DNA from: a virus
Lineage: Duplodnaviria > Caudoviricetes
DNA: 32,136 bases
Strand: one strand, 5' to 3'
Virus record (IMG/VR): IMGVR_UViG_3300033067_000240
Span: 1 to 32,136 of that record
Shown: in pieces, positions 3,103 through 26,742 of the stretch
How positions within the stretch are numbered: position 1 is the first letter of the stretch
Layout of the letters: each line of letters opens with the position of its first letter
Made by a program: the position numbers and the translations under genes
Notes under the pieces: generated by a model
Database searches by the model: none
What the model saw: the letters and a program-made list of their open reading frames with translations, nothing else
What the model was told of the DNA's origin: nothing

Positions 3103-3629
3103 CGCTCTACCTTGTTTAGTTGTTCTAAGAATACAGAACTATTTAACTTCCAGAAAGTCTGCACATGCCCTCTGTATTCTTTTTCAAACGCACGAGTCAA
3201 CACACCTGTCTTTTCTAAGGTTGGTCCCCATATGGTATGCACTAGTCGTTGTGTGCCCACATCACTTGGGTGTGTTGTTATGTACATGTCACCTTTAGCC
3301 CATTCAATACAAGCAGGCATAAAGAACTGTGCTGTATAATGTTGATGAGTTGCTATTTGATTTCTAGTACGCAAGGTAGTAGCTGGCAACAGGTCGCTGA
3401 GTATACAGGTCCTTGCACAAATACGATAACCTTCATCTATGCTGTGTGCGCCCACTGAGCCTACGGCCTTATTGTTGTAGTAAAGAATCCACACGCACCA
3501 CTCACGCTCGTTTCTAAAGCAATCAATCATTGCCTTTTGACTAGCGTTATTTACAAAACCCCTACGGTCTGCTTCAGCATAGAATTCAGTTAAATCTAAC
3601 TCTGGCGTCCACGGAATTATTTTATACAT
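3093..3629 (-). CDS. GNAT-like acyltransferase, putative
   Basis: 178 aa; VWILYYNNKAVGSVGAH beta-strand pattern, RICARTC and MYITT resemble GNAT fold elements; weak match. Confidence 0.4.
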   Translation of the reverse strand: MYKIIPWTPELDLTEFYAEADRRGFVNNASQKAMIDCFRNEREWCVWILYYNNKAVGSVGAHSIDEGYRICARTCILSDLLPATTLRTRNQIATHQHYTAQFFMPACIEWAKGDMYITTHPSDVGTQRLVHTIWGPTLEKTGVLTRAFEKEYRGHVQTFWKLNSSVFLEQLNKVERWN

Positions 3630-24240: not shown

Positions 24241-24826
24241 TGCGTCCTATTACCATAAATCTTTTATACAAGGGCAATTCTAATTCCCCTGCCCACAATA
24301 CTTCAATTCCGCATTGTGTTTTAAACTCTTCTAAGTCTTTTGCTGTGCGAACATGCTCAGGTATGTCGTAGTCGTTACTTTGCAATACCAGCAAAGTGTT
24401 ATACGGCATACCGCTCAACCATAAGTCAAACTGGTCTTGTGTAATATGCTCGCAACTCGTATTGATAACAATGTCTGCGTCACTGCGAATTGTACACATA
24501 TCAGAAGTAACTGCACGGAATCGTCCTTGCATTTCTTCATGCTTGTTCATCATAGTCGCAATAGGTTCGCATGTTGGATCAATATCGATGCTACGAATAG
24601 TAGTAACAGGAATGTTACTTTGAAATAGCATACTAGCAAGAGTGCCTACCCAGCCTCCGTGTATATCTACACTAGAACCAAAATGTACATGTTCGTCTAA
24701 GCAATCGATAAGCCACTCTTTACTTTTAAGCTGACCTGACCAGAACGCATCCATTGTACGCATAGGATCCGGACTTTGGCGAATTGCCTGCATCCAGTAG
24801 TGTAAATGTTCTGTGTCTATTTGCAT
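24233..24826 (-). CDS. Class I SAM-dependent methyltransferase-like protein
   Basis: VDIHGGWVG (motif I), IRSIDID (motif II acidic residue), DIVINTSCEH. Confidence 0.7.
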   Translation of the reverse strand: MQIDTEHLHYWMQAIRQSPDPMRTMDAFWSGQLKSKEWLIDCLDEHVHFGSSVDIHGGWVGTLASMLFQSNIPVTTIRSIDIDPTCEPIATMMNKHEEMQGRFRAVTSDMCTIRSDADIVINTSCEHITQDQFDLWLSGMPYNTLLVLQSNDYDIPEHVRTAKDLEEFKTQCGIEVLWAGELELPLYKRFMVIGRNV

Positions 24827-25788
24827 TTTGGTATTTTGCTGTCTGCTGAACTAACACAACTAGGTGTAATACAACGAGTAGGTTCCTTGAATAAATTAAA
24901 GTTATCCAATGTACCTAATGGAACATCATGACAACTGTAACTGCGTTTGACTTCGTTACCTCTTATTATAACACTTTGATAGCCTGCATTGCAAGACCAG
25001 TTAGTAAATTTATTAAAGCCAAAGGCATTAAATCTTTCTGCTTGATCAAACAAATGTTCAGTACCGTCTGCTTCGTATAAAGCAATTTGATAAACTTCTT
25101 CACCGTTTGCTCTTTGTGGAAATCCTTCACGCATCTTGTGTATCATGTCTTCGGTGTAGCCGTCGACAATACTGCTAGCAGTTAGATCGCTTTGCGGTTT
25201 GAGCGTTACATTAATACCACGCTCGTGTAATCGTTCCATGCGTTCGTAGAGTTCGTAAAACTTCTCCGGCACCATAACTTGGTTAACTGTCACATGAACT
25301 AGCTCGTATTGTAGTTGTAAACACTTGTCGCCAAACTCTTGCTCTTTAGCAAACTCATCGTGGAAGCTGGCAGTGATACTGCGGCGTTGTAGCATCTCTG
25401 TATTCTTACACCAAGTGTTCCACCATTTGCTGCCTGGACTCAAGTTAGTGGTCATGTGTATACTTTGATAAGAACTTTCTTTCTCATCTAAGTGTTTAAT
25501 TAACTCTGGTAACTGTTTGTAGGCTGTAGGTTCGCCGCCACTGAACGACCAATGAAATTGGTTAAACCCATTAGCACGGGCTTGTCGTTTAATCTCGTCT
25601 ACTGTACTTTTATACAGTTCTAGACTTTGGTAATCTTGCACATCACTCCTAGCATAAGGCCAGCAGTAACTACATTTATAATTACAGAATCTTCCTAATA
25701 TCCAACTGGTTGAAAATAATGGATTGGCTAGCATGGTGCGCTGTCCAAAACGAACTATGTTGTTAAATGGTATATTAGAAAATTGCAT
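24817..25788 (-). CDS. Radical SAM protein with C-terminal Cys-rich domain
   Basis: SWILGRFCNYKCSYC, FSGGEPT, MTTN, WSCNAG...CITPSCVSSAD; related to 21243..22148. Confidence 0.9.
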   Translation of the reverse strand: MQFSNIPFNNIVRFGQRTMLANPLFSTSWILGRFCNYKCSYCWPYARSDVQDYQSLELYKSTVDEIKRQARANGFNQFHWSFSGGEPTAYKQLPELIKHLDEKESSYQSIHMTTNLSPGSKWWNTWCKNTEMLQRRSITASFHDEFAKEQEFGDKCLQLQYELVHVTVNQVMVPEKFYELYERMERLHERGINVTLKPQSDLTASSIVDGYTEDMIHKMREGFPQRANGEEVYQIALYEADGTEHLFDQAERFNAFGFNKFTNWSCNAGYQSVIIRGNEVKRSYSCHDVPLGTLDNFNLFKEPTRCITPSCVSSADSKIPKCK

Positions 25789-25794
25789 TGAATG

Positions 25795-25800
25795 TATTTA
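25795..25800 (-). promoter_or_regulatory. TAAATA late-promoter-like box 6 nt upstream of ATG 25788
   Basis: Minus strand reads TAAATA-CATTCA-ATG. Confidence 0.55.
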
Positions 25801-25840
25801 ATACGCAGAAAATAAGTCCAAATATTTCAGCCAAATAAGG

Positions 25841-25869
25841 TTGACATTGTAGCCAAAGTGCTATATAAT
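25841..25869 (+). promoter_or_regulatory. Consensus sigma70 promoter
   Basis: TTGACA (25841-46), 17 bp spacer, TATAAT (25864-69); predicted +1 falls at about the 5' end of the tRNA-like RNA. Confidence 0.85.
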
Positions 25870-25875
25870 ACAAGG

Positions 25876-25992
25876 GTAGATGTGAGTGGAAAATGGTATA
25901 CCTCCTCCAATGCTGGTACCCTAACTAGCAACGGAGGGTCAGGTCTTGCTCTTAGAGCGACTTTGTAGGTTCGAACCCTACCATCTACACCA
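25876..25992 (+). tRNA. Atypical 117-nt tRNA-like RNA (class II, Leu-like scaffold) with elongated anticodon arm; no anticodon assignable
   Basis: Acceptor stem GTAGATG/CATCTAC plus A plus encoded CCA; T arm GTAGG-TTCGAAC-CCTAC; D loop GGAAAATGGTA; central arm CCTCC-AA-TGCTGGT-ACCCTA-ACTAGCA-AC-GGAGG; long variable hairpin. Confidence 0.8.
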
Positions 25993-26020
25993 ATTTTAAT
26001 CATGCTTAGAAAGGCATTGT

Positions 26021-26347
26021 ATGAAGAAGGTTTTAGTATTACTGGCATTGGTTGCAACGAACACATTGGCATTTACTGATGACCCTACTGCACCGTTTGA
26101 TGCAAGTACTTTGATGACTACCAAAACAACCATTAGCTGGGAAGTTGTTCCTAATGCTAACGCCCGTTGTCAAGCAGAAAGTAAGAAGCGTGGCTACGGT
26201 GGCTTTGGCAGTAAAGTCGAAGCATGTTCTTTCTGGGAAAAAGGTTTGACTGGTAATCGTTGTATTATCATTACAAACAAGTGGACTAGTATGCATCAGC
26301 TAGGACACGAAACTCGCCACTGTTTCCAAGGTGGATTCCATAAATGA
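26021..26347 (+). CDS. Exported small protein with HExxH (zincin-like) motif
   Basis: Signal peptide MKKVLVLLALVATNTLA; C-terminal LGHETRHC; four Cys. Confidence 0.65.
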   Translation: MKKVLVLLALVATNTLAFTDDPTAPFDASTLMTTKTTISWEVVPNANARCQAESKKRGYGGFGSKVEACSFWEKGLTGNRCIIITNKWTSMHQLGHETRHCFQGGFHK

Positions 26348-26742
26348 AAGAATACGATTTACAAGAAGAGATTCGCGACTGTTCCTGGATAATGGCTAAG
26401 ATCCAAGCCGAGGATCGACGCTATGCCCAGAATTTATATGCGGCTTGGTGCAACATGCAATGGTGCAAGCGTGAGATGTGGCCAGTGCTTTCAGAGCGTT
26501 ACTGGTCAGCAACTTGGCGTGGCGCAGGTGGTATTGTAGCAGAACTTCGCGGCCAAGGCGAAGACTATATGGACTACTATTGTAGTGGTATGCGTGGTGG
26601 ACTTAGCTTTGATGGCAAGGATGACGAAGACTATTTTGAGAAAACTGGCTACATGAGCGAGGGTGAAGTTTCGGAAGAAATAGCACAGGACTTGAATGAT
26701 TTAGGGTGGTTTCCTGTTCCTTATGATGATGACTTCGTTTAA
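26344..26742 (+). CDS. Hypothetical phage protein
   Basis: 132-aa acidic ORF (YAQNLYAAWCN, WRGAGGIVA, YMDYYCSG) overlapping the upstream stop. Confidence 0.7.
   Translation: MKEYDLQEEIRDCSWIMAKIQAEDRRYAQNLYAAWCNMQWCKREMWPVLSERYWSATWRGAGGIVAELRGQGEDYMDYYCSGMRGGLSFDGKDDEDYFEKTGYMSEGEVSEEIAQDLNDLGWFPVPYDDDFV

What the first reader, a model, noticed from the sequence alone, without database searches (positions are those of the whole stretch)
25876..25992. 117-nt tRNA-like RNA with perfect acceptor and T arms but no canonical anticodon loop
Seen: a 7-bp acceptor stem, A discriminator, encoded CCA, canonical T arm and Leu-like D loop. The anticodon arm is a 5-bp stem, a 2x2 internal loop (AA/AC), a further 7-bp stem and a 6-nt loop (ACCCTA). 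The 27-nt variable region forms its own hairpin (AGGTC-TT-GCTC-TTA-GAGC-GACTT). It has a consensus sigma70 promoter with +1 near the mature 5' end. Intact pairing throughout argues against decay. Established: bacterial LeuRS relies on A73 and tertiary shape rather than the anticodon. Inference: a chargeable non-decoding tRNA mimic, for example an aminoacyl donor for the neighbouring enzymes or a decoy for anticodon nucleases. Alternatively it is a tRNA with an unusual short insert that is processed out.
Basis: partly seen in the sequence, partly recalled or inferred. Interest (0 to 1): 0.85.

Follow-up and report, generated by a model that had tools for sequence, protein, structure and literature searches.

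The report
Anticodon-less leucine tRNA mimic of phages
This freshwater phage gene is shaped like a leucine tRNA but has a plain hairpin where the codon-reading arm should be; because some 200 related versions keep the marks read by the leucine-loading enzyme, it is likely loaded with leucine and likely hands it to an enzyme outside the ribosome, a job not yet shown for any phage RNA of this kind.

Summary
The RNA belongs to a family of 208 distinct sequences (93-119 nt) from large T4-like phages, one copy per genome. Acceptor, variable and T arms covary; the D-stem pairs are invariant. The anticodon arm is a free hairpin of 14-36 nt, often UUCG-capped. None of 208 forms a canonical anticodon arm and the shortest are too short to splice, so intron and pseudogene are refuted. 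The LeuRS identity set (A73, A15-U48, G18G19, A20a) is kept in 207-208 of 208. A weak EF-Tu pair, A51-U63, is kept in 204 of 208, against 3 of 91 phage tRNA-Leu. A sigma70 promoter places +1 on the mature 5' end (98 of 99; 71 of 102 in a second set), against 1 of 178 canonical phage tRNAs. Best reading: a host-leucylated, non-decoding leucine donor (0.4); rival, a defence decoy (0.3). The link to neighbouring enzymes is not supported, no partner enzyme was found, and expression is unshown. Not in Rfam or cultured phages. The closest known RNA is phage T5 RNA1, function unknown. This scan noted the same kind on other DNA (e1-6114233).

The parts
25841..25869 (+). sigma70-type promoter, -35 at 25841-25846, -10 at 25864-25869; predicted +1 = 25876 (leaderless transcript)
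   Evidence: 12 of 12; same 6-nt spacing in 98 of 99 homologs and 71 of 102
25876..25992 (+). 117-nt anticodon-less tRNA-Leu-like RNA gene (whole element)
   Evidence: model R1 98 bits (the window is part of the model's alignment)
25876..25882 (+). acceptor stem, 5' strand (pairs with 25982-25988)
   Evidence: 6 of 7 pairs show changes on both sides
25885..25903 (+). Leu-type D arm: A10-U25, G11-C24, bulged U, G12-C23, G13.A22; loop with A14, A15, G18G19, A20a
25904..25937 (+). hairpin in place of the anticodon arm (5 bp, 2x2 loop, 7 bp, 6-nt loop); length and loop free in the family
25938..25964 (+). long variable arm (5 bp, 2-nt bulge, 4 bp, 3-nt loop) and U48 at 25964
   Evidence: 8 of 9 pairs show changes on both sides; U48 in 208 of 208
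25965..25981 (+). T arm with G49-C65, U50-A64, A51-U63 (weak EF-Tu pair)
   Evidence: values from PMC3239215 Table 2
25982..25992 (+). acceptor 3' strand, discriminator A73 (25989), encoded CCA
   Evidence: CCA in 207 of 208
26021..26347 (+). 108-aa ORF with an N-terminal hydrophobic stretch, first gene of the predicted co-transcript (family F2)
   Evidence: first downstream ORF in 59 of 72 loci; no Pfam or PHROG match
26344..26742 (+). 132-aa ORF (family F1), used to find the homologous loci
   Evidence: no Pfam, PHROG or Atlas hit
24817..25788 (-). divergent radical SAM gene, common but not constant neighbour
   Evidence: PF04055; upstream neighbour in 60 of 78 loci

Best explanation
This is a tRNA-Leu-shaped phage RNA gene with a plain hairpin instead of an anticodon arm; its RNA is likely made without a 5' leader, likely loaded with leucine by the host leucyl-tRNA synthetase, and likely used as a leucine donor by an enzyme outside the ribosome. 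Steps: (1) shown: promoter spacing, cloverleaf, no anticodon arm, leucine identity set, weak 51-63 pair, single copy beside a normal set of tRNA-Leu genes. (2) Inferred: host sigma70 polymerase starts at G1, so the RNA needs no RNase P, only 3' trimming at the U/A-rich run after CCA. (3) Inferred from known LeuRS rules (about 0.7): it is leucylated. (4) Inferred: having no anticodon it cannot decode, and A51-U63 lowers EF-Tu binding by about 0.9 kcal/mol against phage tRNA-Leu, so the charged RNA forms a pool that the ribosome does not drain, as the non-proteinogenic tRNA-Gly of staphylococci does. (5) Not shown: the acceptor enzyme. The host Leu/Phe-tRNA-protein transferase feeding ClpS-ClpAP is one candidate; an unrecognised transferase is as likely.
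For: Identity set: U48 and A73 in 208 of 208; A14A15 and A20a in 207 of 207 parsed. In 636 canonical phage tRNAs the set is in 89 of 91 Leu, 8 of 14 Tyr, 0 of 52 Ser. Ten of the 12 best canonical matches to the family model are tRNA-Leu. LeuRS needs A73, A15-U48, G18G19 and A20a but not the anticodon arm (PMC9976931 passages; PMC2377443 abstract); TyrRS needs U35. Conservation pattern fits a partner that reads the acceptor end, elbow and variable arm and ignores the anticodon arm. A51-U63 in 204 of 208 against 3 of 91 phage tRNA-Leu; predicted -9.40 against -10.27 kcal/mol; the same pair marks S. aureus non-proteinogenic tRNA-Gly (PMC7826273 passage) and three analogous RNAs of cultured phages. 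Carriers keep normal tRNA-Leu(UAA) and (UAG) (4 of 4 genomes).
Against: No tRNA-dependent transferase or synthetase family in 363 of 372 ORFs of the 94% complete G001; PF03588 in 0 of 5 records. The acceptor stem does not match the E. coli L/F-transferase preference (PMC4105747 abstract): G3-C70 in 111, A4-U69 in 23, C68 in 8 of 208. ClpS is also in G208, which lacks the RNA, and was not found in two incomplete carriers. The EF-Tu effect is modest: -9.4 equals normal Tyr, Ile and Trp tRNAs, so it does not exclude EF-Tu. The D stem is atypical (A10-U25, bulge in one clade) and the variable arm is longer than in tRNA-Leu, either of which could impair charging. No expression evidence.
Confidence: 0.4

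Rival explanations
1. Decoy against tRNA-targeting defence. Made at once from a strong leaderless promoter, it would bind anticodon nucleases without offering a cleavable loop, or absorb toxins that act on the CCA end or on the attached amino acid, and so spare the real tRNAs.
For: Anticodon loop replaced by stable caps (UUCG 28, CUUG 8 of 99); elbow, variable arm and CCA kept; no need for RNase P; sits inside the tRNA cluster in many clade B loci; phage-only so far. It is compatible with leucylation.
Against: A decoy for anticodon nucleases would be expected to keep anticodon-arm features, yet that arm is the least conserved part. A general decoy would not need the exact leucine set or a weak 51-63 pair. 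No defence system was identified.
Confidence: 0.3
2. Sponge or modulator of host LeuRS or other class II tRNA machinery: it competes for LeuRS or leucine and shifts charging between host and phage tRNA-Leu.
For: The full LeuRS set is kept; the anticodon arm carries editing determinants (PMC2377443 abstract), so the complex could behave unusually; the usual operon includes IF-1 (61 of the loci).
Against: The phages encode their own tRNA-Leu and, in G001, no synthetase, so they depend on the same enzyme.
Confidence: 0.12
3. Cis element: a 5' structure that stabilises the operon mRNA or directs its processing.
For: It lies at the very 5' end of a transcript, mostly 20-31 nt before an ORF; no convincing terminator follows.
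Against: Downstream genes differ between clades and are often a tRNA; a stabiliser would not need A73, CCA, the D/T-loop contacts or a fixed variable arm.
Confidence: 0.1
4. Normal tRNA with a short intron or processed insert.
For: The window copy alone has 17 nt more than a canonical loop.
Against: Arm length runs from 14 to 36 nt with no shared junction or anticodon; 8 of 99 are shorter than a canonical arm; 0 of 208 form 5 bp + 7-nt loop in register.
Confidence: 0.02
5. Decaying pseudogene or assembly error.
For: ARAGORN and Rfam do not call it.
Against: 208 distinct versions; 22 of 28 pairs change on both sides; contigs of public runs cover it, one spanning 25713-26684 with 1 difference (that run may be the window's source).
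Confidence: 0.02

Closest known systems
Phage T5 RNA1 (NC_005859.1 30501-30644, annotated 'tRNA-like stable RNA with unknown functions')
   Same: Leu-type D arm with A15 and A20a, long irregular hairpin in place of the anticodon arm, long variable arm, U48, A51-U63.
   Different: U at the discriminator position, no encoded CCA, mismatched first pair, no promoter directly upstream; 25.7 bits on model R1, below T5 tRNA-Leu (36.4) and far below members (78-102). Same kind, different family.
Unannotated elements of Erwinia phage pEa_SNUABM_19 (MW879342.1 289123-289234) and Vibrio phage 2.275.O (MG592671.1 210989-211123)
   Same: Leu-type D arm, non-canonical anticodon arm, long variable region, U48, A51-U63, A73.
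   Different: No encoded CCA, no adjacent promoter, 40.7 and 34.5 bits; not described as far as the Erwinia record shows (the Vibrio annotation was not checked).
Phage T4 RnaC and RnaD (species 1 and 2 RNAs)
   Same: Stable small RNAs of the tRNA region with unknown role; RnaC has a T arm near its 3' end.
   Different: No Leu-type D arm; RnaC 18.6 bits, RnaD no match; late RNAs.
Bacterial and phage class II tRNA-Leu (Rfam RF00005)
   Same: Identity set, D loop, acceptor stem close to a bacterial tRNA-Leu(UAG) (L210).
   Different: No anticodon arm, A10-U25, longer bulged variable arm, A51-U63, leaderless.
Non-proteinogenic tRNA-Gly of Staphylococcus aureus
   Same: A51-U63 and weak EF-Tu binding; donor for a non-ribosomal transferase: the functional model used here.
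   Different: Cellular, glycine, intact anticodon arm, known partner (Fem); larger EF-Tu gap (1.2 against about 0.9 kcal/mol).
Allo-tRNAs and irregular tRNA0/1/2 (Mukai et al., PMC5389517)
   Same: Non-canonical tRNAs, some with long variable arms, found in metagenomes.
   Different: 8/4 or 9/3 acceptor branches with anticodons; this family is 7/5 without one.

Membership tests
Canonical tRNA (RF00005) | 5-bp anticodon stem with 7-nt loop and U33 | tested here: not met
   0 of 208 in register; ARAGORN and Rfam negative on the window
Canonical tRNA (RF00005) | 7/5 acceptor-T branch, D/T-loop consensus, NCCA | tested here: met
Bacterial LeuRS substrate | A73, U8.A14, A15-U48, G18G19, A20a, T-loop contacts | tested here: met
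   (207-208 of 208); rules from PMC9976931
Bacterial LeuRS substrate | Actual leucylation | not testable with these tools
   needs a charging assay
Bacterial TyrRS substrate | U35 anticodon base and G1-C72 | tested here: not met
   no anticodon; G1-C72 in 163 of 208
tmRNA tRNA-like domain | G3.U70, no D stem, tag reading frame | tested here: not met
   G3.U70 in 9 of 208; G001 and G210 carry a separate tmRNA
Intron-containing tRNA | Removable insert that restores a conserved anticodon loop | tested here: not met
Bacterial Y RNA (YrlA) | Rfam match and a Ro60 (TROVE) gene | tested here: not met
   no Rfam hit; PF05731 in 0 of 5 records, 1 of them at least 90% complete
Allo-tRNA | 8/4 or 9/3 acceptor branch | tested here: not met
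   7/5 in all
T5 RNA1 family | Sequence-structure similarity above ordinary tRNA-Leu | tested here: not met
   25.7 bits against 36-46 for tRNA-Leu
T5 RNA1-like kind (anticodon-less tRNA-Leu shell) | Leu D arm + hairpin instead of anticodon arm + long variable arm + T arm | tested here: met
Non-proteinogenic donor tRNA | Weak EF-Tu T stem | tested here: inconclusive
   A51-U63 in 204 of 208, but predicted -9.4 kcal/mol lies within the range of working tRNAs
Non-proteinogenic donor tRNA | A partner aminoacyl transferase | tested here: inconclusive
   none found in the phage; a host enzyme was not tested
Preferred E. coli L/F-transferase substrate | G3-C70, A4-U69, C68, C72 | tested here: not met
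   111, 23, 8 and 163 of 208

The most novel reading that the evidence does not exclude
Large phages encode a dedicated class of leaderless, anticodon-less leucyl carriers: charged by host LeuRS, tuned away from EF-Tu, and used to feed leucine to a non-ribosomal transferase during infection. T5 RNA1 and the unannotated RNAs of Erwinia and Vibrio phages would be further members of the class, which would give a first function to phage stable tRNA-like RNAs.
Probability: 0.3. Interest if true: 0.9.

Novelty: new variant of a known kind. Interest (0 to 1): 0.72.

Why it matters
T4 and T5 stable tRNA-like RNAs are on record as of unknown function. This family supplies 208 natural variants that show which features are under selection (LeuRS set, variable arm, CCA, A51-U63, start at G1) and which are free (the whole anticodon arm). 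That turns an old open question into three direct assays: charging, EF-Tu binding and partner capture. If the RNA is a donor or decoy, it is a phage tool acting on host tRNA biology that tRNA finders miss or mislabel (ARAGORN called 7 of 60 loci, as Pro, Arg or undetermined). It is also a natural tRNA scaffold that tolerates 14-36 nt of cargo in the anticodon arm.

Tried and rejected
ARAGORN and Rfam (gathering and E<=10): no relevant match. blastn against 50,697 phage records: only T-arm pieces for the window, nothing for a clade B member. An exact D-loop/T-loop pattern found 0. The leaderless scan was mis-specified by one base and gave only noise; it was dropped and repeated. In one search two rows tagged as family (L445, L458) are ordinary tRNAs with leaders and were not counted. 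The 3 GTDB pattern hits and L090 are chance matches. Model R1 found 0 of 151 genomes of G004's class at E<=1e-11, but without a positive control and with 25 candidates scored per genome: weak. Expression: two metatranscriptome runs gave no contig over the RNA; one covers 26054-26449 only; contigs show neither ends nor levels, so this is no evidence either way. Gene-content comparison of four carriers with G208 gave no convincing partner; Atlas searches on two operon proteins named no family. The variable-arm loop as a relocated anticodon was rejected: its loop varies (UUA 55, AUU 21, CUA 6, AUA 6 of 99). A sarcin-ricin mimic as the main function was rejected: the motif is in 39 of 99 and not in the window copy. 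The A15 count of 102 was a parsing error, corrected. No structure or complex prediction was run.

Full report
Observation. A perfect sigma70 consensus ends 6 nt before G1. ARAGORN and Rfam call nothing. The window is a 32-kb virus record. Public runs labelled freshwater metagenome hold it, and one contig spans the RNA with a single difference (that run may be the window's source).

The family. Searching viral contigs with the downstream 132-aa protein gave 65 loci, 41 of which carry a homologous RNA upstream. A D-arm pattern gave 119 loci (about 290 estimated), 114 of them complete copies; of the other five, four are cut by a contig end and one is chance. With the window this is 156 copies and 99 distinct sequences (clade A). 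A scan anchored on promoter, T arm and CCA, not on the D arm, found 20 members among 102 distinct matches and exposed a divergent clade. A scan aimed at it gave 33 loci and 24 distinct sequences, all members. A metagenome scan without the promoter gave 120 loci (about 660 estimated), 112 distinct, 103 members and 9 dropped as non-members. The total is 208 distinct sequences of 93-119 nt, down to 43% identity with the window. A covariance model finds exactly one copy (78-102 bits) in 7 of 10 large records searched, six of which were picked because they hold it, and none in G207, G214 or the complete G208. Carriers are T4-like phages of up to 400 kb with about 30 ordinary tRNAs, tRNA-Leu(UAA) and (UAG) included. 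DnaK and IF-1 of G001 match Neisseria, Ralstonia and Aquabacterium best among plasmid records, a weak hint of a betaproteobacterial host.

What is conserved. On 61 non-redundant sequences, 94.4% of cells pair and 22 of 28 pairs change on both sides; sliding the partners drops pairing to 34-50%. The variable arm keeps its shape (about 5 bp, bulge, 4 bp, 3-nt loop) while its sequence covaries. A10-U25, G11-C24, C26-G44, G7-C66 and G53-C61 never vary, and so give no covariation support. The anticodon position is the opposite: in clade A the arm is 14-36 nt with loops of 3-10 nt, most often UUCG (28 of 99), and 0 of 208 form five pairs around a 7-nt loop in register. Eight of 99 arms are shorter than a canonical arm. 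This refutes the intron and pseudogene readings: selection keeps a hairpin there, not an anticodon.

Leucine identity. E. coli LeuRS needs A73, A15-U48, G18G19, A20a and the D/T-loop contacts, and still charges tRNAs without the anticodon arm (PMC9976931, passages; PMC2377443, abstract). U48 and A73 are in 208 of 208, A14A15 and A20a in 207 of 207 parsed. Circularity was checked: A73 was free in the 99 clade A sequences (99 of 99), A15 and A20a were free in the metagenome set (102 of 102), U48 was free throughout. Among 636 canonical phage tRNAs the set marks 89 of 91 Leu, 8 of 14 Tyr, 0 of 52 Ser and a minority of several short-arm tRNAs. Tyr is unlikely because TyrRS needs U35. Ten of the 12 canonical tRNAs that score best on the family model are Leu. 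Descent from tRNA-Leu is well supported; leucylation is an inference (about 0.7).

T stem. A51-U63 is in 204 of 208 members and 3 of 91 phage tRNA-Leu. With the published increments (PMC3239215, passages with Tables 1, 2 and 4) the family averages -9.40 kcal/mol against -10.27 for phage tRNA-Leu. The same pair marks the non-proteinogenic tRNA-Gly of S. aureus (PMC7826273, passage). Against over-reading: -9.4 is normal for Tyr, Ile and Trp tRNAs, so this lowers EF-Tu binding and does not abolish it.

Leaderless start. The -10 hexamer ends exactly 6 nt before position 1 in 98 of 99 clade A sequences. In the metagenome set it does so in 71 of 102 (5-7 nt in 81; other spacings in 8; no good promoter match in 13). 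L638, found by the model alone, has the same spacing; for the other clade B loci the promoter was part of the pattern. Position 1 is a purine in 208 of 208 and position -1 a pyrimidine in 85 of 102. That sigma70 starts about 7 nt after the -10 element at a pyrimidine-purine step is my recall. As control, 1 of 178 canonical phage tRNAs directly behind such promoters is leaderless (0 of 74 and 1 of 104). The RNA is therefore predicted to begin at G1 with a triphosphate and to bypass RNase P. No start site was measured.

Context. In clade A the RNA heads an operon of small unknown ORFs that usually includes IF-1; the first ORF is family F2 in 59 of 72 loci, and a divergent radical SAM gene is upstream in 60 of 78. 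A subclade precedes other genes, and clade B often lies in the tRNA cluster, with tRNA-Arg(CCU) close by. Most of the window's enzymes have no match in G001 or G210. So neither the neighbouring enzymes nor one downstream gene explains the RNA. Pfam scans of 363 of 372 G001 ORFs (70 aa or more; ORFs across the 20-kb cuts were missed) showed no synthetase, L/F-transferase, CDPS, Fem, RtcB, CCA-adding or TROVE family, and targeted searches for PF03588 and PF05731 found 0 of 5 records. G001 encodes ClpS, ClpP and a ClpA/B ATPase, but ClpS is also in the non-carrier G208.

Mechanism. I commit to a host-leucylated, non-decoding leucine carrier that feeds a non-ribosomal transferase (0.4). L/F-transferase competes with translation for Leu-tRNA (PMC4810233, abstract), which would make a ribosome-proof pool useful, but the family does not match that enzyme's preferred acceptor stem (PMC4105747, abstract), so the partner is open. 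A decoy against tRNA-targeting defence is the main rival (0.3), then a LeuRS sponge (0.12) and a cis leader (0.1).

Known relatives. T5 RNA1 has the same architecture and A51-U63, but U at the discriminator, no encoded CCA and only 25.7 bits. T4 RnaC and RnaD are more remote and of unknown role (PMC9697503 and PMC3014915, passages). Four cultured phages close to G001 by capsid protein lack a member (best 46 bits), but two hold analogous shells with A51-U63. Allo-tRNAs differ in branch geometry (PMC5389517, passages; PMC7609411, abstract and outline). PMC7162821 (passages) does not mention anticodons or introns.

Novelty. Ten literature searches turned up no description of this family; the library lacks most subscription papers and the old T5 work. 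Fremin et al. 2023 (PMC10690425, passages) list 8,495 unnamed structured RNAs from IMG/VR. Their readable supplements did not contain four family motifs (one readable file was skipped in that search) or five contig names, but the two archives likely to hold the alignments could not be read, so an unnamed entry there is not excluded. Verdict: a real, widespread, uncatalogued family; a new variant of a known but unexplained kind; interest 0.72.

Noticed in passing
L201 13786-13877; L207 7709-7800; L208 (G001, G002, G003): Each phage carries a 92-nt tRNA with a UAU anticodon and a long variable region; ARAGORN also lists Ile(UAU) in G208 and G210.
   Followed up: no
L202 about 3120-3430, minus strand (G001): A permuted two-piece tmRNA directly after a cold-shock-protein-like ORF (the protein label is my recall); tag ends in ANDAEFALAA. 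G210 has a tmRNA too.
   Followed up: partly
free arm of 39 of 99 members, e.g. L003 2551-2661: An AGUA/GAA bulged-G motif; 34 of 99 share a 9-nt stretch with the 23S sarcin-ricin stem of G004 (L206) but lack its tetraloop. The window copy lacks the motif.
   Followed up: partly
loci, e.g. L002; G001 L200 1051-1266: The usual operon behind the RNA includes translation initiation factor IF-1 (61 loci); it was not detected in the window or in L001.
   Followed up: partly
MW879342.1 289123-289234 and 295946-296070; MG592671.1 210989-211123, 211223-211358, 171224-171342: Several further tRNA-shaped RNAs with altered arms in cultured jumbo phages; the first is unannotated in its record.
   Followed up: partly
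L544 336-412: A leaderless short-variable-loop tRNA-Leu(UAA), the only leaderless canonical tRNA among 178.
   Followed up: no
L394 and L432: Two 95-nt tRNAs with a UAU-type loop, unusual D arm and long variable region that ARAGORN does not call.
   Followed up: no
window 990-25788: A large island of radical SAM and other tailoring-type enzymes (one confirmed as PF04055; the rest read from the translations); noted by the scan on other genomes.
   Followed up: no
G001 L203, L199, L197, L201: The phage encodes ClpS, ClpP, a ClpA/B-type ATPase, DnaK, DnaJ, ribosomal protein S21 and an RNA polymerase omega-type subunit.
   Followed up: partly
G208 and G210: Each has a tRNA with a CUA anticodon (ARAGORN label Pyl), a possible amber suppressor.
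   Followed up: no
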